DNA of 64,000 nt. Origin: a virus. Lineage: Duplodnaviria > Caudoviricetes. Position numbers and translations under genes: made by a program. This document shows positions 3,277 to 57,898 of this stretch, piece by piece. The stretch lies in IMG/VR virus record IMGVR_UViG_3300021375_000006; one strand, written 5' to 3'. Positions within the stretch are counted from its first letter, which is position 1, and each line of letters begins with the position of its first letter. The notes under the pieces were generated by a model. The model was not told the origin of the DNA. It saw only the letters and a program-made list of their open reading frames with translations, and ran no database searches.

Positions 3277-3324
3277 TGTGTGCTAGACATATTTTTGGTT
3301 AATATATCTATCTGACACTTAGAT

Positions 3325-4290
3325 TTAAAAATCTTCAGTCTCTTTGTATGATTCTAGTATTAATTTAAAGTATTGATGTGATGCCCACTTTTCATCTGGC
3401 ATTGGAGATTTAGTAGGATCTGTATTAATATAGAGTCCTTTATAGAATGGACCTCCTGTTTCTTGTTTTGTTACACCCGCATTATGAAAAATAGCATGGC
3501 TTTCCCATTTCTGTACAGGTTGAGTGCCCCATCCGAACTCAAAGTCATCATGACATTGAGTTTCATATCCCATTTTCCAAAGATTCCATAACACTCCCCA
3601 CATATCAGCGCACCAAATTTGAATTTCATGCCATTCTTTATGCTGTTGTTTAATCTCTCTTACTCTTTCGCTAATAATTTTAAATAAATTTTCGCTATCA
3701 TTGTATACTTTTTGCCAAAACTCTGCAGTAATACCAGGTTTTAGTAAATATTGTGCTCCACCTGCTCCTTCTTCACGATTTTCAACCATTTCTTGGTCAA
3801 TTCCTACAATTTCACACATTTCTTCAAAAATACCATGCTTTTTACTTTTAATATATTTAGCACCTACATAAGATATTGTGTCAGAAACAATACAAGTATT
3901 TTTTAAATCTACTGTTAATTTGTCTTCTAATTTAAGAGGTTTTGTTAATGCAATATCACAATCATGGTACATTACATTATGAGCAGTTAACCAAGGGTAT
4001 TTTTGCCAGTGTTTTTGAAGAATATGAGGTCTAATAGATGAGATGTACGAATGAGCGCCTCTTGTATCTTCATAATAAGAAAATAGTACTCCCTTTTTAG
4101 ACCACTTTCTTCCTACTTTTTCAAATCTACTATGAGGACCATCCGGAGCATGCGAACTTACAACATGGACTTTAGACATGTCTATATTTCCGTTTTTTTC
4201 AAAAGAAGCTAGCATTGCATCTACTTGCCAAGAGTAATAAAATGACGCCGGCTGCGCGCAGATCCAGTAAAGATTTTTGTTTTCTGACAT
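3325..4290 (-). CDS. Glycosyltransferase resembling GT95/GT96 (HPAT / peptidyl-serine galactosyltransferase) protein O-glycosyltransferases
   Basis: FYYSWQ, SSIRP, HDCD (DxD) and WCADMW line up with plant YFDWQ, INKP, LDAD and WISEMY motifs (recalled, not searched). Confidence 0.55.
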   Translation of the reverse strand: MSENKNLYWICAQPASFYYSWQVDAMLASFEKNGNIDMSKVHVVSSHAPDGPHSRFEKVGRKWSKKGVLFSYYEDTRGAHSYISSIRPHILQKHWQKYPWLTAHNVMYHDCDIALTKPLKLEDKLTVDLKNTCIVSDTISYVGAKYIKSKKHGIFEEMCEIVGIDQEMVENREEGAGGAQYLLKPGITAEFWQKVYNDSENLFKIISERVREIKQQHKEWHEIQIWCADMWGVLWNLWKMGYETQCHDDFEFGWGTQPVQKWESHAIFHNAGVTKQETGGPFYKGLYINTDPTKSPMPDEKWASHQYFKLILESYKETEDF

Positions 4291-25260: not shown

Positions 25261-26418
25261 TTATCTAAATTGATAGTTCAATCCAGCTTTTGCTGAATAA
25301 ACTTTTCTATCCCAGAATTTCTGGTAGTTACCTTCAATATAAACCCCTAAATTCTTGCTAAGCTTCCAGCCAGTTACTAAACCAACTTGGTAGTCTGTCC
25401 ACTGTGCTTTAGGATCTCCATCTCCAATCCATCTAGCATATCCAAAATCATCATCACCAAATAATTGAGTATGGTATGGAAGTACTGAAGCTGAGAAATG
25501 TACCCAGTTGTTTCTTTCATAGTGATAGAAGTCTAAACCAATTACCGCTGATAAAGTACCTTGATCGTCAATTAGTGCTAATTGTTCTCTATTGTAAGGA
25601 CCTACAACTAGGGGACCAAATCTATTAGCTCTAAAGTCTTGGTCTGTATCTGCAACTCTCTGGCCGTTTGGTGCTGTCCAGTAATAGTCGATTAAGTCTG
25701 TTTCACCATCAAAATCTAAATCAATACCATAAGCATTATCTTGGAAACCATACTCGTATGCTAGTTCCCACCATTGTCTTAGTCTTTCATTACCGAATTC
25801 ATCGATAAATGGAGTTTCTAAGTAATCTCTAATTGGCTCATAACCATAAGGTCTATGGCTTCTTGCTACAGCACCGATTGTAAGATTTAATTTCTTACCG
25901 ATTGGTTTTCTCCATCTTAGGTCAACTGAGTTATATTCTAGGTCAACAAAACCATCGTTTTTAGATTCTAACTTAGCAACCCAATTCTTACCTAAATATC
26001 TTAAGTAAAGGTCTTGGTTTGTAAATTCATTACCGAACTGTCTGTTCCATGTATACTCGAATTTATATTCCCAACCAGATACAGCACCTACAGTTGTATA
26101 AAAACCTTGTTGTTGTTCTTTTCCATCATAGAATACTCCTGGCTTTCTTTCATAATCAAATCTAGCTACCTTTCTAATACCTAAACCGTATGAATAGTTA
26201 GCTTTTCTTTCTGGAGTTACATCGATAACTGCGTTATCTTGGTCTACATAGTAGAATCTCTCTGATGATTGTAGTGGTTGACTAACTTGTCCTACACCAT
26301 AGAAAGTAGAGTATTTAAAGAACTGACCTATATCGATTAATTTCTTTTTAGGTTGTTCTTGAGCTTCCGCAACTTGAAATGTTACCAAAGCTAGTATTAG
26401 TAGTAAAAACTTTTTCAT
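25261..26418 (-). CDS. Probable outer-membrane beta-barrel protein
   Basis: Signal peptide, alternating aromatic strands, C-terminal AGLNYQFR. Confidence 0.55.
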   Translation of the reverse strand: MKKFLLLILALVTFQVAEAQEQPKKKLIDIGQFFKYSTFYGVGQVSQPLQSSERFYYVDQDNAVIDVTPERKANYSYGLGIRKVARFDYERKPGVFYDGKEQQQGFYTTVGAVSGWEYKFEYTWNRQFGNEFTNQDLYLRYLGKNWVAKLESKNDGFVDLEYNSVDLRWRKPIGKKLNLTIGAVARSHRPYGYEPIRDYLETPFIDEFGNERLRQWWELAYEYGFQDNAYGIDLDFDGETDLIDYYWTAPNGQRVADTDQDFRANRFGPLVVGPYNREQLALIDDQGTLSAVIGLDFYHYERNNWVHFSASVLPYHTQLFGDDDFGYARWIGDGDPKAQWTDYQVGLVTGWKLSKNLGVYIEGNYQKFWDRKVYSAKAGLNYQFR

Positions 26419-50319: not shown

Positions 50320-50381
50320 TAGTACTAATATACGAAAAATAATTGACATAAAAAAATCTAGAGGCAATTATTTTGCAAAAA
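50320..50381 (-). promoter_or_regulatory. Conserved promoter-like element, copy 2
   Basis: Same spacing as copies 1 and 3. Also shares GCAAAATAATTGCC with copy 3. Confidence 0.7.
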
Positions 50382-50946
50382 GTTTGTCTAGTGGATAAAG
50401 ATTATCCTCTGACTCGGCTCTTTCTGGATGCCATTGTACTGCCCAGATCTTTCTGCTCTCGTCTACGATCGCTTCTGGAATACCACCACCAATATGAGTT
50501 ACTGTAAAGTTATCTGCAACTTTAGCACAGTATTGATGATGTCTTGAATTAACGGTTGTAGTATTTCCGTCTCTATCTGTAATAATATGTTGTCGTGAAG
50601 GTCTAGTGGCATGTGATACATTATCTGAAAAGTCTGCAGCTGCATGAGCCTCTACTATTTCATCATCTATATTCTCTACCACACCACCAAAAAAGTGGTT
50701 AAGGATTTGCATGCCACGGCAAACTCCAATAATAGGTTGCTTATTTGCAATAGCCTCTTGAATCCACCTGAATTCTCTAATATCTCTATCTTTATCTTTA
50801 CCAATATCAGCACCACCTGCTAGAATAAGTGGTCCCGTAATAGGTTGGTTATCTAAAACCTCTGGTTCAAATCCATATCGGGTTAACCATTCAATAAATG
50901 CTGTTTTTTCGGAAGGTCCTTTCGGTGGCGCTAGATAAACTTTCAT
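50368..50946 (-). CDS. Class I glutamine amidotransferase-like (peptidase C26) protein
   Basis: LAGGADI, GVCRGMQ, VNSRHHQ, VQWHPE. Confidence 0.85.
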   Translation of the reverse strand: MKVYLAPPKGPSEKTAFIEWLTRYGFEPEVLDNQPITGPLILAGGADIGKDKDRDIREFRWIQEAIANKQPIIGVCRGMQILNHFFGGVVENIDDEIVEAHAAADFSDNVSHATRPSRQHIITDRDGNTTTVNSRHHQYCAKVADNFTVTHIGGGIPEAIVDESRKIWAVQWHPERAESEDNLYPLDKLFAK

Positions 50947-51333: not shown

Positions 51334-51645
51334 TTATTCTGCGTCAGGTACATAAACAGCTGCTCTGCCTTCTATGTCTGCCATTAAAGCTGTAACTTGG
51401 TCTTTTGTATAAGCTGATAACCACGCGCTATCATCTTGTTGTGTTACGCCATCAAAGACTTTACAATCAAATGCGTTGTAAGCATCTGCGCTAGCCTCTA
51501 CTGTTAATTCTGCTGCAGCTTCTGGATCTAGAGAAACTCTAGGTGGTCCTGCTGTTACATGAATTTGAAAAAAGTTATCAAAAACGTAATTTGATTCAAA
51601 TCCATTTTCTAAAGGTTTAAATACTAAGTCTGTAAACTGTGCCAT
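51334..51645 (-). CDS. Hypothetical acidic protein inside the RNA cluster
   Basis: Intact 103-aa ORF. Confidence 0.55.
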   Translation of the reverse strand: MAQFTDLVFKPLENGFESNYVFDNFFQIHVTAGPPRVSLDPEAAAELTVEASADAYNAFDCKVFDGVTQQDDSAWLSAYTKDQVTALMADIEGRAAVYVPDAE

Positions 51646-51669
51646 AATTATATTAATTGTTTTTAATTT

Positions 51670-52072
51670 AAAAAAGAGGATCGTGTGCTAGAGTATACCA
51701 GCTCTAGAAGATCGTTCTATTGTATATATTACTGCATACCAACTAACTCTACTATTATTTCGAGTTCTACTCAAGATGGTTAATCTCGTTGTAGCGCCAC
51801 AATGGCTTTAGTTGTACCTTATCCCCTATAGAATAGGATTATTCGGTCACTAGGCAAGGCTTCCTCTCGGGTACTTGCAATGCTCTTCGTGAAATAGGTT
51901 TAGTTGTCTATTTCCCGATCTACCATCTTCTACTCTGTCGAGTCTCAATCACTCACTTTCGCAATTGAGCCGAAACTTGTTCGGTGTCAGATGTGCCTTA
52001 ACCCCTCTCACGTCAGGGTTTTTTCGGCCACACACTCACTCTCCGTCTGATCAGGAGTTCGAGTGCCTCTTT
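51670..52072 (-). ncRNA. Candidate large structured non-coding RNA (~400 nt), family unassigned
   Basis: No ORF, raised GC, many nested helices with GNRA loops, an 8-bp long-range helix, and 5' GAGG / 3' CCTC-U6 closure. Lies in the tRNA cluster. Confidence 0.65.
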
Positions 52073-52077
52073 TAATA

Positions 52078-52111
52078 TGTTAAAGAACTTTTATGCGAAT
52101 TGGGGTTTCGC
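52078..52111 (-). promoter_or_regulatory. boxB-like hairpin followed by a boxA-like antitermination site (GTTCTTTAACA)
   Basis: GCGAA-ACCCCAA-TTCGC at 52095-52111, then GTTCTTTAACA at 52078-52088 (rrn boxA is TGCTCTTTAACA). Confidence 0.55.
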
Positions 52112-52291
52112 TTACCCTTGCTTATTCTTGTTGCTTACGTAAACTCTTACGTCTTGTGCAACACCTTTGATAGTTTGCATTGCTTTACGTACTCTTGTAC
52201 CTGCAGCTTTGTTTCCCTTTTCGTCGAATTTTACCGCGTCATCTTGGATGCTTTCGATAGCTTCTGTAATTTGATTTAATAATTCTTGCAT
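52112..52291 (-). CDS. Bacteroidota-type histone H1-like (Hc1-like) small basic protein, missing from the ORF track
   Basis: Translated by hand: MQELLNQITEAIESIQDDAVKFDEKGNKAAGTRVRKAMQTIKGVAQDVRVYVSNKNKQG. GNKAAGTR.RK is the family signature. Confidence 0.8.
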   Translation of the reverse strand: MQELLNQITEAIESIQDDAVKFDEKGNKAAGTRVRKAMQTIKGVAQDVRVYVSNKNKQG

Positions 52292-52346: not shown

Positions 52347-52721
52347 TTATTCTGACTTTAAAGTATTATGTCTTCCGTTGAAACCGCCGTATTTTGTGTA
52401 TTCTTCATCTACCTCACCAATATCAAACCACTCAGTTGAGTACTTGTCTGTGGTTGATGAGTAAATATCCATGTCACCTTCAAATAGAAGTGATATTTGA
52501 TCTGCTAAATCTGTTTTATCTAAAGATTCTAATTGGTCACAGATGTCATACCAATCTTCATAATAGAGTTCTTGAATATACTCTACGAATTCTTGTTCTG
52601 ATTCAACATCTCCTTCATAAGGAAAATCTGGTAGATCTGTAAAATCTACAGGGTCTAGATCGACTGCGTCGTTAGCTTCCCAGTTCGTGTATTTTTCACA
52701 CTTTCTAATTTGAAATGCCAT
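52347..52721 (-). CDS. Acidic hypothetical protein
   Basis: Intact ORF. Confidence 0.55.
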   Translation of the reverse strand: MAFQIRKCEKYTNWEANDAVDLDPVDFTDLPDFPYEGDVESEQEFVEYIQELYYEDWYDICDQLESLDKTDLADQISLLFEGDMDIYSSTTDKYSTEWFDIGEVDEEYTKYGGFNGRHNTLKSE

Positions 52722-53954: not shown

Positions 53955-54164
53955 CTAATATTTTGTTGCTATTTTTTGATATGCTGCAAAAAGATGGTCC
54001 GCTGCCTTCTCTACTTCACCTCTTGCTTCCTTCTCTATTTTTAATACTGGGTGTTGAATTAAAGTTTCATCAATTAAACCTAATACTATATTTAAAGTAT
54101 GTACTACCTCATGATAATGAAAATCATCTAATTCTAAGTCTCCTATTTTTTTCTTGCTACTCAC
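53955..54164 (-). CDS. Hypothetical protein
   Basis: Intact ORF in the operon. Confidence 0.45.
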   Translation of the reverse strand: MSSKKKIGDLELDDFHYHEVVHTLNIVLGLIDETLIQHPVLKIEKEARGEVEKAADHLFAAYQKIATKY

Positions 54165-55992
54165 TTTTAATCCACATTTTATTATTAATAACTAATACGT
54201 CTACATCAGATTCTTGGAATAGTCTCATGGCATCCTCTGGGGTTTCTACTATTGGTTCTCCTTTTACATTTAAAGATGTATTTATTACTATAGGAATACC
54301 TGATATACTTTCAAATCTCTCAATTAGCTCATATAGTTTAGAATTGTGCCCTTTAGTTAGAGTCTGTACTCTAGCAGTATTATCAATATGAACTGCTGAT
54401 GGAATTTCAAATGGCCTCTTACATGGAACTGTATGTAACATAAAAGGTGAGTCAAAATCCATAACAAACCAGTCTTGTGCTTTTTCTTGTAATACAATTG
54501 GAGCAAATGGCCTATACCACTCTCTAAATTTAACTCTAGAATTTAGTATGTCCTTCATTTCTGGATTTTTAGGTGATGTGATAAAAGATCTATGCCCTAA
54601 TGCTCTAGGACCATTTTCAGATCTACCATCAAACCAACATATAATTTTATCTTCATTTAACTGCTCAGCAATAAAATCTAAATCTAATGGTTGACTGCCT
54701 TCAAGATAACTATCATCCCATGTTAATCCTGTATATGCTAACTCAGATGTACTATAATCTTGTCGAGGTACACCTAGTGTATAATGTAAATACCAAAGGG
54801 CTCCTCCTGCAGATGTGCCATCGTCTCCACATGCTGGGAACATGTGCATTTTATCAAAATCAGTTTCTGTATGAATTTTATAGTTTGCGTTACAATTTAA
54901 GAATGTACCACCGGCAACGCACAGATTTCCATCATTAAATTTTTCAGTCTCTTCATATAGATCTTGTGTATATTTTACTAAAGATCTCTCTGTAATAAAT
55001 TGAATAGTGGCTGCAATATCCATAGCCTCTTGTGTGGTTGACTCTTCTTTAAGAAAGGGGAATTGCCACATTCTATTAAAAGAATTGTGGCCTGGTTCTT
55101 CTGCTAATACCTCTGGTCTTTGTTGCCTTTTTTCTAATGGGAACCTACCACTTATTTGAGAGAATAACCAGTCAATATATCTCCACTCTTCTCGCTCTAT
55201 TTTCCTATTGAATTGAGGTTCTGTCCACTCTTCCCACTTATCATAGGCTTCTCTTTTTATTCTACCGTATGCTGCTAATCCCATTAAAGTCCCTGCCTTT
55301 AATGTACCTGGACCTATTCCTAAATATTCTGTCGCAACATCATAAAAATTGCCTAGCATATAGCCTGGATTTCTAAAGAAGTGTAATTGAGTATCATCAC
55401 CTACCCAATATCCACTACAGGCTAAATCGTGGTGCATAGATGCGTCTACTGTAAAAATAGAAGCCTTGTTAAAATTAGAAGTAAAAAATGCAGAAGCTGC
55501 GTGTGCTGCATGGTGGTCTACAAAATGACCGTTAAAAGTTTTATCTACACCGTCTATTCTAATATTAAGTGCAAAACCTTTCGCTAAGTTAATATCTTCA
55601 GATCCGTATGGTAATAATGTTCTTTGTATTAGATTAGGTAGTGTGAATCCCCATTCTGTTTTCTCAGGCCTAGGCTCTCCTTCAATATGATTTAAAATAG
55701 GAGTTTCGGCAGACCAACTACCAAATGTAGTTAATGGGTATCTAGTATCATAGGGAGAGTATATTGACATCCAAGGCGCTAGTTCTTTTACCCAAGCAGT
55801 TAATGTAATAAAGTCAATATCTTCTAGTTTAACATCCCAGCCATTTAAAAAGAACTCTAATTGTTCTTTAGTAATGTACATGTCTTTTTTAATTCTAGAT
55901 AAACGTTCTACTGAAGTTGTAGCTACAAGCTTATCATCTTTTATTAAAGAAATAGCAGCATCGTGGCCTAAATGAATTCCAACTATAATCAT
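54157..55992 (-). CDS. O-carbamoyltransferase (NodU/CmcH/TobZ family)
   Basis: GIHLGHDAA, VERLSRIK, DHHAAHAASAF, GTLMGLAAYG, AGGTFLNC, GPRALGHRS, RVKFREWYRPFAP, NTSLN. Confidence 0.9.
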   Translation of the reverse strand: MIIVGIHLGHDAAISLIKDDKLVATTSVERLSRIKKDMYITKEQLEFFLNGWDVKLEDIDFITLTAWVKELAPWMSIYSPYDTRYPLTTFGSWSAETPILNHIEGEPRPEKTEWGFTLPNLIQRTLLPYGSEDINLAKGFALNIRIDGVDKTFNGHFVDHHAAHAASAFFTSNFNKASIFTVDASMHHDLACSGYWVGDDTQLHFFRNPGYMLGNFYDVATEYLGIGPGTLKAGTLMGLAAYGRIKREAYDKWEEWTEPQFNRKIEREEWRYIDWLFSQISGRFPLEKRQQRPEVLAEEPGHNSFNRMWQFPFLKEESTTQEAMDIAATIQFITERSLVKYTQDLYEETEKFNDGNLCVAGGTFLNCNANYKIHTETDFDKMHMFPACGDDGTSAGGALWYLHYTLGVPRQDYSTSELAYTGLTWDDSYLEGSQPLDLDFIAEQLNEDKIICWFDGRSENGPRALGHRSFITSPKNPEMKDILNSRVKFREWYRPFAPIVLQEKAQDWFVMDFDSPFMLHTVPCKRPFEIPSAVHIDNTARVQTLTKGHNSKLYELIERFESISGIPIVINTSLNVKGEPIVETPEDAMRLFQESDVDVLVINNKMWIKSE

Positions 55993-56602: not shown

Positions 56603-57898
56603 TTAAAAAGTTCTTACTCCGTCGTAAACTGCTTTAATAACTGGGAACCTCAATGAGTATTCTCCTGACTTGCTTTGAGATTCTTCAAAGTATTGTACGG
56701 TAATCTGCTTCCCTAGAATCTCGTTAGGGTTAGCGAAGTAATAGCGTCTCTGTTCGTGACTAAAGCCACTACCGACGCGTACCTGATTTCCTTTATGTTC
56801 GATGATAACATTCTTTAGCATCAGTTCCTCGACCTCTGCACCATCGACAATAACTCTATGGACGTCATTCTCAAGATCGACTACAATATACTCATCGTCA
56901 AACATTTGTTTTACTTTCAAGATCTCATCAGATCTTTTACCCTTATAGGCTGCATCTTTACGAAGCATTAGGCCTTCCCAGCCATTAGCTTTAGATTCTG
57001 CCATCATCTCCGAGAAGATCTGATCGTTACAGATTTGTTGCGGTAAAACTCCGATTAGTGTTAGACCCTTACCTAGACTCAAATCAAGTAGATCTGTAAT
57101 TCTTTGGCCGAATGTAACCTCTGAAGTTTTAGAGTTGAAATCTTCCATTGACAACATGTCAAACATCCAGTAGTATGGTTTTACAATAGTATGGTCTTTA
57201 CGTTTGATTTCTTTAATGATACCAGCAAAGTCTTCGTTACCATTCTGGTCTACGATACAAACTTCGCCATCAAGAACTGTATTCTTTAAACCAAGTGCTT
57301 TAATATCTAGTTTCAGATGATCAAGTGTCAAGAATTCTTTACCTTGACGTGAGAAGAACTTAGGCTCTCCGGAGGCATCAATAACTGTAAGACATCTTAC
57401 ACCATCCAGTTTTCTTGAGACGAACCAACGATCTTCCCAGTTAACTTTCTTTTGAGTCTTCTCATCAAATGCTTTGGCAAGTGCCACATCAAATGTAGGA
57501 ATAAGTCCTGGTTTTACCTTGTTAATCATAGAAGCAGTTGACCTAGTCTTTAGGTTTCTGTCAATGATGTTAAAAATAAGATCTTTGTAAATATAGTTCT
57601 CATGTACAAATCTATTCACGTTAGCGATTGCTGCGTGACCTGTACAAACTCTATTATTCAGATCATCTAGTAAAGTAAAAATACTTCCATAAGTATTAGG
57701 ATGTCCCATGAGATCTGAATTCTTCTTGCAGTTAGCAGAAGTAACACCATATTGTTTGTAGGTGTCATAAGTATAATTAAGTGCTTTACATACTGACTCG
57801 TATTGAGTATATGTTTTTAGCACTTCTAATTTGTCTGAGTTAGAGTTCGTAGCATTTGATGCTTCGACGAAATCTGAAATAAGTTGAAAATCTGTCAT
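56603..57898 (-). CDS. lig: ATP-dependent DNA ligase
   Basis: SRKLDGVR (motif I), VLDGE, WEGLMLR, ILKVK, GSGFS, SLRFP. Confidence 0.9.
   Translation of the reverse strand: MTDFQLISDFVEASNATNSNSDKLEVLKTYTQYESVCKALNYTYDTYKQYGVTSANCKKNSDLMGHPNTYGSIFTLLDDLNNRVCTGHAAIANVNRFVHENYIYKDLIFNIIDRNLKTRSTASMINKVKPGLIPTFDVALAKAFDEKTQKKVNWEDRWFVSRKLDGVRCLTVIDASGEPKFFSRQGKEFLTLDHLKLDIKALGLKNTVLDGEVCIVDQNGNEDFAGIIKEIKRKDHTIVKPYYWMFDMLSMEDFNSKTSEVTFGQRITDLLDLSLGKGLTLIGVLPQQICNDQIFSEMMAESKANGWEGLMLRKDAAYKGKRSDEILKVKQMFDDEYIVVDLENDVHRVIVDGAEVEELMLKNVIIEHKGNQVRVGSGFSHEQRRYYFANPNEILGKQITVQYFEESQSKSGEYSLRFPVIKAVYDGVRTF

What the first reader, a model, noticed from the sequence alone, without database searches (positions are those of the whole stretch)
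51670..52072. Unassigned ~400-nt highly structured RNA in the tRNA cluster
Seen (minus strand; + coordinates): GCCGAAA/TTTCGGC (52022-28 with 51969-75) enclosing AACCC/GGGTT. CTCAAT/ATTGAG with a GAAA loop. ACTC-GACA-GAGT. Long-range AAGATGGT/ACCATCTT (51922-29 with 51773-80) enclosing GAAATAG/CTATTTC, GCAAG/CTTGC with CC-GAGA-GG, CCTAT/ATAGG and GCCA/TGGC. A 3' CTAGAG/CTCTAG hairpin, then CCTC-U6. Established: large phage ncRNAs such as GOLLD and ROOL sit beside tRNA genes and are rich in GNRA loops. I cannot match this one to them, nor to tmRNA, RNase P or group I cores. Inference: a new or divergent large ncRNA class.
Basis: partly seen in the sequence, partly recalled or inferred. Interest (0 to 1): 0.82.

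Follow-up and report, generated by a model that had tools for sequence, protein, structure and literature searches.

The report
Double-core manA-type phage RNA
The flagged stretch is a real, expressed, about 404-base folded RNA of marine Flavobacteria phages that is built from two nested copies of the core of the known "manA" RNA (recently reported to build RNA-only cages), so it is a large uncatalogued variant of a known but functionally unexplained RNA family rather than a wholly new class.

Summary
On the minus strand, window about 52076-51673, lies a 404-nt non-coding RNA. I found 124 full-length homologues in marine viral and metagenomic contigs. In 54 representatives, 59 of 97 predicted base pairs show compensatory changes and 98.9% of cells are canonical, against 35-44% when partners are slid. 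Two pairings (GCCGAAA/TTTCGGC and AAGATGGT/ACCATCTT) are contradicted by covariation.

It is not a new class. Rfam's manA model (RF01745) hits the 3' half in every homologue tested (20-33 bits, below the 55.2 threshold). A model I built from the 5' core finds bona fide manA RNAs and also the 3' core of the same molecule. The RNA is therefore an outer manA-like scaffold whose long hairpin carries a second manA-type core.

Each core's apical loop forms a covarying pseudoknot with a downstream strand. The first hairpin always carries a palindromic loop (GAUC, GGCC or UCGA). A perfect boxA-consensus match (GTTCTTTAACA) precedes the RNA. In many homologues tRNA genes flank it directly. Whole metatranscriptome contigs from two studies match its predicted span.

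Most likely it is a stable trans-acting RNA, cut from a tRNA-type transcript, that self-associates as manA does. Its function is unknown. Earlier notes in this scan record the same family and other manA-like RNAs on other DNA.

The parts
52078..52088 (-). boxA-like leader GUUCUUUAACA, 6 nt upstream of the closing helix
   Evidence: Exact match to the boxA consensus GYTCTTTAANA. The box is conserved as GTTCTTT(A/G)A(A/C)(A/G)TA(T/A)T in all 54 representatives. Function not tested.
52094..52110 (-). Hairpin GCGAA-ACCCCAA-UUCGC after the stop of the upstream 59-aa gene (boxB-like or terminator-like)
   Evidence: Sequence. A similar hairpin sits at the same place in many homologues. The + strand terminator scan flags the same bases.
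51673..52076 (-). The whole RNA, about 404 nt
   Evidence: A whole metatranscriptome contig of run X5 (404 nt, 0 mismatches) spans 51673-52076. A whole contig of X18 spans 51678-52056. The extent of nhmmer homology agrees.
52066..52071 (-). P0 closing helix, 5' strand AAGAGG (pairs with 51674-51679)
   Evidence: Covaries as AU/GC/GU: 24 AU against 19 GC, 27 against 25, 30 GC against 23 AU.
52037..52065 (-). First hairpin (CACUC/GAGUG) with apical palindromic loop CUGAUCAG at 52047-52054
   Evidence: Stem covaries. The loop holds a palindrome in nearly all of the 92 unique members: UGAUCA, CUGAUCAG, GAUC, UGGCCA, GGCC or UCGA. The single exception keeps GAUC one base short (CGAUCA).
52031..52035 (-). 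Outer enclosing helix, 5' strand GUGUG (pairs with CACAC 51683-51687); corresponds to manA's enclosing helix
   Evidence: aligned to manA model positions 18-22.
51994..52029 (-). Outer internal-loop hairpin (GGCC GAAAAA ACCCU ... AGGGGU UAA GGCA), manA signature GAAnAA / UAAGG
51923..51993 (-). Outer four-way junction: CAUC/GAUG enclosing hairpins 51970-51984, 51944-51969 and 51932-51943, followed by GGUAG
   Evidence: All four helices covary. This is the core of model R1.
52006..52012 (-). Outer pseudoknot, loop strand CGUGAGA (pairs with UUUCACG 51888-51894)
   Evidence: Covarying variants are GGAAAGA/UCUUUCU, GGAAGGA/UCUUUCC, GGAAGAA/UUCUUCU, AGACAGA/UUUGUCU and UGGAAAGA/UUUUUCCG. Permutation test: observed 7.03 against 6.00 (sd 0.08).
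51891..51914 (-). Hairpin H0 (GAAAUAG/CUAUUUC); its 3' strand overlaps the outer pseudoknot target
   Evidence: Covaries, for example GAAAGAU/AUCUUUC.
51916..51921 (-). Long helix, 5' strand AGAUCG (pairs with CGAUCU 51709-51714); it carries the inserted inner module
   Evidence: Covaries: CG 42 / UA 11 and GC 48 / AU 6. Aligned to the start of manA's long hairpin.
51854..51878 (-). Inner hairpin GCAAG/CUUGC with CC-GAGA-GG tip
   Evidence: CG 41 / UA 13. Aligned to manA hairpin 1.
51816..51848 (-). Inner internal-loop hairpin (GACC GAAUAA UCCUAU ... AUAGGGGA UAA GGU)
   Evidence: Matches manA's conserved UGACnGAAUAA ... UAAGGU.
51740..51814 (-). Inner four-way junction: CAACUAA/UUAGUUG enclosing hairpins 51796-51806, 51767-51794 and 51745-51766, followed by GGUAUGC
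   Evidence: Hit by R1 at 51738-51849 (24.4 bits, E 9e-4).
51828..51833 (-). Inner pseudoknot, loop strand UUCUAU (pairs with AUAGAA 51715-51720)
   Evidence: At least 8 complementary variants, including CUUAUU/AAUAAG, UUAUGU/ACAUGA, UCCAAU/AUUGGA, UCUUGU/ACAAGA and UGUGU/ACACG. Permutation test: observed 6.33 against 5.60 (sd 0.10).
51688..51707 (-). Last hairpin CUAGAG/CUCUAG with loop CUGGUAUA (manA's conserved GGUAUAC loop)
   Evidence: Five of six pairs covary. Aligned to manA's last hairpin.
51670..51679 (-). P0 3' strand CCUCUU and U tract
   Evidence: In some homologues a tRNA starts only a few nt after the U tract (alignment ends; L001).

Best explanation
This is a stand-alone, stable, trans-acting structured RNA of about 404 nt, made by large marine phages that probably infect Flavobacteriia. 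It is a divergent, enlarged member of the manA superfamily.

Architecture. An outer manA-like scaffold has, in order: a 5' hairpin, an enclosing helix, an internal-loop hairpin, a four-way junction, a long hairpin and a last hairpin with a GGUAUA loop. The long hairpin is expanded by about 200 nt, and that insertion holds a second manA-type core (internal-loop hairpin plus four-way junction). In each core, a covarying pseudoknot joins the apical loop of the internal-loop hairpin to a downstream strand.

Biogenesis (inferred). It is transcribed with the neighbouring tRNA genes, behind a boxA-like element, and cut out of the precursor.

Action (inferred). By analogy with manA RNAs, reported to form decamers and a 60-mer cage through kissing loops, and given its conserved palindromic apical loop, it most likely works by assembling with copies of itself into an RNA-only particle or scaffold during infection. 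What that particle does is unknown.

My odds: real expressed RNA with this fold, above 0.9. manA relationship, about 0.85. Self-assembly, about 0.4.
For: Fold:
- 59 of 97 pairs have compensatory changes in 54 representatives.
- 98.9% canonical cells against 35-44% when slid.
- Two covarying pseudoknots.

manA relationship:
- Rfam manA hits the 3' half at 29.8 bits, E 1.5e-5, and in 7 of 7 homologue loci at 20-33 bits.
- manA is also the top family for the 5' half alone, with the expected element-by-element alignment (E 0.48).
- Model R1, built from the 5' core only, finds the cores of RNAs that pass Rfam's manA threshold: L175 E 5e-4, L191 6e-4, L099 1.7e-3, L092 2e-3.
- R1 also finds the 3' core of the same RNA: window 51738-51849, E 9e-4.

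Stand-alone gene in tRNA context:
- In L001 the RNA (3300-3735) lies between tRNA-Ala (ends 3299) and tRNA-Gly (starts 3737).
- Other copies follow or precede tRNA arrays.
- Bona fide phage manA RNAs also sit about 10 nt after tRNAs or tmRNAs.

Expression:
- Seven RNA-library runs hold it.
- Whole contigs confined to it occur in two studies: X5 51673-52076 and X18 51678-52056.
- Contigs bridge from the upstream gene into it and from it into the downstream ORF.

boxA: exact match to GYTCTTTAANA (sequence), conserved family-wide.

Self-association:
- Palindromic loop kept through GAUC, GGCC and UCGA variants.
- manA cages are held by kissing loops (preprint 10.64898/2026.07.01.735769).

Host: the 3 true hits in genome contigs are all in MAGs labelled Flavobacteriaceae or Flavobacteriales.
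Against: - Every Rfam manA score is far below the gathering threshold (29.8 against 55.2).
- The hit on the 5' half alone is not significant by itself (E 0.48).
- R1's hits on manA loci are partly helped by the fact that those loci were fetched with a pattern taken from the inner internal-loop motif.
- Covariation cannot tell intramolecular from intermolecular pairing, so the two 'pseudoknots' could be kissing contacts or the reverse.
- The GAUC to GGCC change occurs in one clade and may be a single event. A 4-nt palindrome in a 9-nt loop is not rare by chance.
- The metatranscriptome evidence is from assembled contigs, which show neither true ends nor levels. RNA libraries can also carry DNA.
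- The cage report is an unreviewed preprint on in vitro refolded RNA.
- No biological function is known for any manA RNA.
Confidence: 0.6

Rival explanations
1. A trans-acting RNA that works as a monomer or with a protein on the translation or tRNA machinery. Examples would be a decoy or sponge for a host tRNA-targeting defence nuclease, for an RNA-processing enzyme or for a tRNA-modifying enzyme. The manA-type fold would then be a rigid scaffold and not an assembly unit.
For: The family is consistently embedded in tRNA arrays. Bona fide manA RNAs sit beside tRNAs and phage tmRNAs. Its many strictly conserved single-stranded nucleotides are typical of ligand- or protein-binding sites: GAAnAA, UAAGG, GGUA, GGUAUA and the CUAAAC loop.
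Against: No tRNA-like element is detected inside it by ARAGORN or Rfam. No partner protein is conserved next to it: the downstream 103-aa ORF has no relatives, and the upstream 59-aa gene occurs in 133 loci, most of which lack the RNA. Nothing tested here speaks directly to it.
Confidence: 0.25
2. A cis-regulatory leader (riboswitch-like, as manA is catalogued) controlling the downstream 103-aa ORF at 51334-51645.
For: Rfam types manA as cis-regulatory. The ORF starts 25 nt after the U tract. One RNA contig bridges the RNA's 3' part and that ORF (X19, 51430-51784).
Against: The downstream neighbour is not conserved. In several homologues a tRNA gene follows within a few nt, and the 103-aa protein has no relatives in IMG/VR. 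The RNA's 5' and 3' ends pair (P0), leaving no expression platform. Whole RNA contigs are confined to the RNA itself. A boxA-like leader points to a stable-RNA type of transcript.
Confidence: 0.07
3. A member of another known large-RNA class (GOLLD, ROOL, RNase P RNA, tmRNA, group I or II intron) too divergent to be recognised.
Against: cmscan with permissive filters at E up to 10 on 1.2 kb lists only manA, SAM-III (E 0.12) and STnc320 (E 2). ARAGORN finds no tmRNA. The flanking ORFs are complete, so there is no interrupted host gene for an intron.
Confidence: 0.02

Closest known systems
manA RNA motif (Rfam RF01745; Weinberg et al. 2010, PMC2864571; cryo-EM preprint 10.64898/2026.07.01.735769)
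   Same: - Same order of elements: 5' hairpin, enclosing helix, internal-loop hairpin with GAAnAA/UAAGG, four-way junction with three hairpins, GGU, long hairpin, last hairpin with a GGUAUAC loop.
- Marine phage habitat.
- In phage contigs, bona fide manA RNAs are also next to tRNAs or tmRNAs.
- A loop-to-strand pseudoknot was tentatively drawn for manA ('pseudoknot?').
   Different: - About 404 nt against about 175-215 nt.
- Scores 20-33 bits against a 55.2 threshold.
- Two cores instead of one, the second nested inside the long hairpin.
- An extra closing helix P0 joins the two ends.
- A boxA-like leader.
- Hosts probably Flavobacteriia rather than cyanobacteria or Photobacterium.
- Not in a 5' UTR.
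ROOL and GOLLD large RNAs (Rfam families; general knowledge that they occur in phages and prophages near tRNAs and form homo-oligomeric assemblies)
   Same: Several hundred nt, ornate, phage-borne, often beside tRNA genes, no known function. Self-assembly is suspected here.
   Different: No sequence or structure match at E up to 10. This RNA is smaller and has a different helix topology.
rrn-type boxA antitermination leaders (NusB/NusE site, consensus GYTCTTTAANA; bioRxiv 10.1101/091223)
   Same: The 11-nt box at 52088-52078 matches the consensus exactly. It lies just upstream of an untranslated stable-RNA gene and just after a hairpin, as boxB-boxA does in rrn leaders.
   Different: The consensus was derived for gamma-proteobacteria. 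The host here is probably a Flavobacterium relative, and I did not check its rrn boxA. No binding or antitermination test was done.

Membership tests
manA RNA (RF01745) | Score at or above Rfam's gathering threshold (55.2 bits) | tested here: not met
   29.8 bits in the window and 20.2-32.7 bits in seven homologue loci. No hit in gathering mode.
manA RNA (RF01745) | Hairpin with conserved asymmetric internal loop (UGACnGAAUAA ... UAAGGU) | tested here: met
   Inner copy at 51816-51848 is aligned to the model. Outer copy at 51994-52029 is aligned. Both are conserved and covary.
manA RNA (RF01745) | Four-way junction with three hairpins directly 3' of that hairpin, followed by GGU | tested here: met
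   Both junctions are supported by covariation. Model R1 of the outer core hits bona fide manA cores and the inner core.
manA RNA (RF01745) | Enclosing helix, long hairpin and last hairpin with GGUAUAC-type loop completing a single unit of about 190 nt | tested here: inconclusive
   The elements are present in the outer module. The long hairpin, however, carries an insertion of about 200 nt holding a second core. The spliced outer module could not be scored against the Rfam model with these tools.
manA RNA (RF01745) | Position in the 5' UTR of a protein gene (catalogued as cis-regulatory) | tested here: not met
   Downstream neighbours vary and are often tRNAs. Bona fide manA RNAs in the phage loci examined here are also beside tRNAs or tmRNAs, so this catalogue feature may not define the family.
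manA RNA (RF01745) | Homo-oligomer formation through kissing loops (preprint) | not testable with these tools
   Only indirect: a palindromic apical loop is kept across the family.
GOLLD / ROOL | Match to the Rfam covariance models | tested here: not met
   No match at E up to 10.
RNase P RNA / tmRNA / group I intron | Match to Rfam models or ARAGORN; for introns, an interrupted host gene | tested here: not met
boxA antitermination element | Sequence GYTCTTTAANA in the transcript upstream of a stable-RNA gene | tested here: met
   GTTCTTTAACA at 52088-52078 against the consensus. Conserved in the family. NusB/NusE binding is not testable here.

The most novel reading that the evidence does not exclude
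A nested two-core manA RNA is produced as a stable RNA from a boxA-antiterminated tRNA operon of Flavobacteria jumbo phages. In the infected cell it assembles with itself, through the palindromic apical loop and the two loop-to-strand contacts (some of which may act in trans), into a larger or differently shaped RNA-only cage or lattice than single-core manA RNAs. That would make it a natural example of how RNA cages grow by domain duplication.
Probability: 0.3. Interest if true: 0.8.

Novelty: new variant of a known kind. Interest (0 to 1): 0.6.

Why it matters
manA is a sixteen-year-old orphan motif, catalogued as a possible riboswitch. A 2026 preprint reports that it forms RNA-only decamers and a 60-subunit cage.

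- This family has at least 92 distinct sequences in marine data and is seen in metatranscriptomes.
- It shows that the manA core can be duplicated and nested inside itself.
- It occurs as a free-standing gene inside phage tRNA arrays, not only as a gene leader, and it extends beyond cyanophages to phages of Flavobacteriia.
- It gives structural biologists a well-aligned 404-nt target with two predicted pseudoknots and a candidate dimerisation loop.
- It strengthens the recurring, unexplained link between ornate phage RNAs (GOLLD, ROOL, manA) and tRNA genes.

Tried and rejected
- blastn against 50,697 deposited phage genomes: no match.
- No whole genome is held for the window.
- The downstream 103-aa ORF has no relatives in IMG/VR. 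Neither flanking small ORF nor the next upstream ORF (52347-52721) has a PHROG family.
- The upstream 59-aa gene was useful only as a synteny handle: 8 of 80 loci fetched with it carry the RNA.
- The exact pattern GAGCATTGCAAG...CCGARAGGAA found only the same 8 contigs.
- A brute-force search for covarying column pairs and stacks was swamped by phylogenetic correlation and was not used. It was replaced by targeted per-sequence loop analysis with a permutation control.
- Column-wise counts for the two pseudoknots are diluted by loop indels: 78% and 87% canonical, against 28-63% when slid.
- Contig depths from read laying are much higher on the RNA than on its flanks (X18 about 247 against 3; X17 about 245 against 2-8; X19 10^4-10^5 against about 75). 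The tool states that contig depth cannot rank genes, and the sum includes relatives, so I do not use this as evidence of level.
- The promoter scan found nothing above shuffles.
- Six of nine genome contigs pattern hits were chance matches.
- A candidate pairing of the boxA-like box with AAGAGC (51887-51882) could not be assessed, because both sides are nearly invariant and only one of four variants compensates.
- I did not type a long dot-bracket string into the count of structure pairs, and did the slide control in Python instead.
- I could not score a spliced outer-only module against Rfam's manA model.

Full report
**1. What is there**

Window 51646-52111 holds no ORF longer than 48 aa. 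GC rises to 0.40-0.445 against about 0.31-0.35 nearby. All neighbouring genes and four tRNA genes (Ala, Gly, Gln, Glu) are on the minus strand. The minus-strand sequence folds somewhat better than shuffles (z = -2.66).

**2. Homologues**

- Deposited phage genomes give no match.
- The upstream 59-aa gene (52112-52291) has relatives in 133 IMG/VR stretches. Eight of the 80 loci fetched carry a 77-88% identical copy of the non-coding stretch directly downstream.
- A pattern taken from the most conserved motif added two more distant copies, L117 and L124.
Over all loci held, 124 hits are full-length homologues.
- After removing duplicates there are 92 distinct sequences. I aligned 54 representatives below 96% mutual identity, which are 65-90% identical to the window.
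- In the species-genome collection, three of nine pattern hits are true members. All three lie in MAGs labelled Flavobacteriaceae or Flavobacteriales.
- That agrees with earlier notes on this genome, which call it a marine jumbo T4-like phage of Flavobacteria. I did not test that label beyond the MAG names.

**3. Structure**

RNAalifold on the 54 sequences gives 97 pairs. Of these, 59 have at least one sequence with both sides changed and the pair kept, and very few cells are broken. In my control the structure has 98.9% canonical cells and 59 doubly changed pairs. When the 3' partners are slid by 1-3 columns, these fall to 35-44% and 9-15. Invariant G-U pairs fix the strand.

Elements, 5' to 3', with window coordinates:

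| Element | Coordinates |
|---|---|
| Closing helix P0, AAGAGG/CCUCUU | 52071-52066 with 51679-51674 |
| First hairpin | 52065-52037 |
| Enclosing helix GUGUG/CACAC | 52035-52031 with 51687-51683 |
| Outer internal-loop hairpin | 52029-51994 |
| Outer four-way junction, three hairpins | 51993-51923 |
| Long helix AGAUCG/CGAUCU | 51921-51916 with 51714-51709 |
| Last hairpin | 51707-51688 |

The long helix encloses:

| Element | Coordinates |
|---|---|
| Hairpin H0 | 51914-51891 |
| Invariant GCAU/AUGC pairing | 51883-51880 with 51737-51734 |
| GCAAG hairpin | 51878-51854 |
| Inner internal-loop hairpin | 51848-51816 |
| Inner four-way junction | 51814-51740 |

Two are contradicted:

- GCCGAAA/TTTCGGC. 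In sequences where the UUCGG strand changes, its partner CCGAA changes with it, while GCCGAA stays the same.
- AAGATGGT/ACCATCTT. The first strand varies without compensation, whereas GRUG covaries with CAYC.

**4. Two pseudoknots and a palindrome**

I compared loops sequence by sequence across the 92 members.

- *Inner pseudoknot.* The apical loop of the inner internal-loop hairpin is complementary to a strand about 110 nt downstream, in at least eight different sequence versions. Examples are UUCUAU/AUAGAA in the window, CUUAUU/AAUAAG, UUAUGU/ACAUGA, UCCAAU/AUUGGA and UCUUGU/ACAAGA.
- *Outer pseudoknot.* The apical loop of the outer internal-loop hairpin does the same with a strand just after H0. 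Examples are CGUGAGA/UUUCACG, GGAAAGA/UCUUUCU, GGAAGAA/UUCUUCU and AGACAGA/UUUGUCU.
- *Control.* Pairing loops with targets from other members lowers the mean complementary run, from 6.33 to 5.60 (inner) and from 7.03 to 6.00 (outer), with sd about 0.1.
- *Overlap with H0.* The outer target overlaps the 3' strand of H0, which also covaries. The two may stack on one strand or alternate.
- *Limit.* Covariation cannot say whether these contacts form within one molecule or between molecules.
- *Palindrome.* The apical loop of the first hairpin holds a palindrome in nearly all members: CUGAUCAG, UGAUCA, GAUC, UGGCCA, GGCC or UCGA. The one exception keeps GAUC one base short.

**5. Identity**

No Rfam family reaches its threshold. 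With permissive settings the only significant match is manA (RF01745): 29.8 bits, E 1.5e-5, covering 51682-51865. It recurs at the same place in all seven homologue loci tested, at 20-33 bits.

L117 and L124 matched the manA-like motif pattern twice each. That showed me the 5' half carries the same internal-loop hairpin. Searching the 5' half alone again puts manA first (11.8 bits, E 0.48). The alignment runs element by element: hairpin, enclosing strand, internal-loop hairpin, junction, and GGUAGAUCG on the start of manA's long hairpin.

As a reciprocal test I built model R1 from the outer core only (110 positions, 31 pairs). I ran it on loci where Rfam finds manA above threshold. R1 hits those manA cores at E 5e-4 to 0.03. 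It also hits the inner core of the window's RNA at E 9e-4, and of L124 at E 9e-3.

Caveat: those loci had been fetched with a pattern from the inner motif, which gives R1 a head start.

Taken together, the RNA is an outer manA-like unit whose long hairpin has been expanded by a second manA-type core, and each core is locked by the same kind of loop-to-strand contact. It fails the family's score threshold and its size, so I file it as a new variant, not as a member.

**6. Context and expression**

- In L001 the RNA occupies exactly the gap between tRNA-Ala and tRNA-Gly.
- In L117 and L124 it follows an array of eight to ten tRNAs.
- Several other alignment rows end in tRNA 5' sequences a few nt after the U tract, or begin with a tRNA 3' end.
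- Bona fide manA RNAs in phage contigs likewise start about 10 nt after a tRNA or a phage tmRNA. This questions the catalogue label 'cis-regulatory' for phage copies.
- Directly upstream of P0, every member has GTTCTTT(A/G)A(A/C)(A/G)TA(T/A)T. In the window, GTTCTTTAACA (52088-52078) matches the boxA consensus GYTCTTTAANA exactly. It follows a hairpin (52110-52094), as boxB-boxA does in rrn leaders. I checked only the sequence match.
- Four members (L124, L200, L208, L235) have TATATTTG about 10 nt upstream of the box. This fits my recollection of the Bacteroidetes -7 promoter element and is untested.
- Seven RNA-library runs hold the stretch.
- Laid on the window, run X5 has a whole 404-nt contig equal to 51673-52076 with no mismatch. 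Run X18, from another study, has a whole 379-nt contig at 51678-52056.
- Low-depth contigs in four runs bridge the upstream gene and the RNA's 5' part. One contig bridges its 3' part and the downstream ORF.
- Contigs prove neither ends nor levels. I read this as presence in RNA libraries, plus a weak hint of a discrete species made from a longer precursor.

**7. How it probably works**

*Shown:*
- The fold.
- The relation to manA.
- The tRNA-array context.
- Presence in RNA libraries.

*Inferred:*
- Co-transcription with tRNAs under boxA-type antitermination.
- Release by the tRNA-processing nucleases.
- Action in trans.

*Inferred by analogy:*
- manA RNAs refolded in vitro are reported to form pentamer-based decamers and a 60-mer shell, through kissing loops and a GNRA-receptor contact (preprint).
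- The conserved palindromic loop here is the kind of element that makes RNA homodimers.

I therefore favour self-assembly (about 0.4). The main rival is monomeric or protein-bound action on the tRNA or translation apparatus (about 0.25). A riboswitch role for the downstream ORF is unlikely (about 0.07): that ORF is not conserved, the two ends of the RNA pair with each other, and tRNAs often follow directly.

**8. Novelty**

This is a new variant of a known kind. The scan has already noted the same family on another genome (e1-5366135, e1-5366153) and other manA-like phage RNAs elsewhere (e1-5318621, e1-1941074, e1-5323103). I found no paper describing a two-core manA RNA or the link between manA and tRNA arrays. 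The library searched is incomplete.

Noticed in passing
window 52112-52291 (-): The 59-aa gene just upstream (motif KAAGTRVRKAMQ, lysine-rich, reminiscent of small histone-H1-like DNA-binding proteins) has no PHROG family. It is nevertheless found in 133 IMG/VR stretches from many large phage contigs.
   Followed up: partly
L099 921-1446, L139, L149, L166, L191 6511-6999, L092 3108-3623, L199: In several IMG/VR contigs a bona fide manA RNA (above the Rfam threshold) lies about 10 nt downstream of a phage-encoded permuted (alpha-type) tmRNA. In others (L152, L091, L095, L162, L175) it lies about 10 nt after a tRNA. Phage manA RNAs look like members of stable-RNA operons, not gene leaders.
   Followed up: partly
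window 52078-52110 (-): Hairpin plus GTTCTTTAACA is a perfect match to the boxA consensus GYTCTTTAANA. It is conserved in front of every family member, including copies that directly follow a tRNA.
   Followed up: partly
window 51900-51906 and 51808-51814 (-): CAACUAA occurs twice: in the conserved loop of hairpin H0, and as the 5' strand of the inner four-way junction helix. The H0 loop could therefore compete for UUAGUUG (51740-51746). Together with the H0 / outer-pseudoknot overlap, this hints at alternative conformations.
   Followed up: no
window 25369-25439 (-): Weak hit of the outer-core model R1 (16.8 bits, E 0.08) inside the 385-aa ORF 25261-26418. Probably chance.
   Followed up: no
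L235 about 2640-2665: One family member carries an extra GC-rich hairpin (GGGCCCAUUGGGCCC) inserted between the GCAAG hairpin and the inner internal-loop hairpin. This shows that the linker tolerates insertions.
   Followed up: no
window 50368-50946 and 54157-55992 (-): Neighbouring genes include a glutamine-amidotransferase-like protein and a Nol-type carbamoyltransferase (PHROG auxiliary metabolic categories). An ATP-dependent DNA ligase lies at 56603-57898.
   Followed up: no
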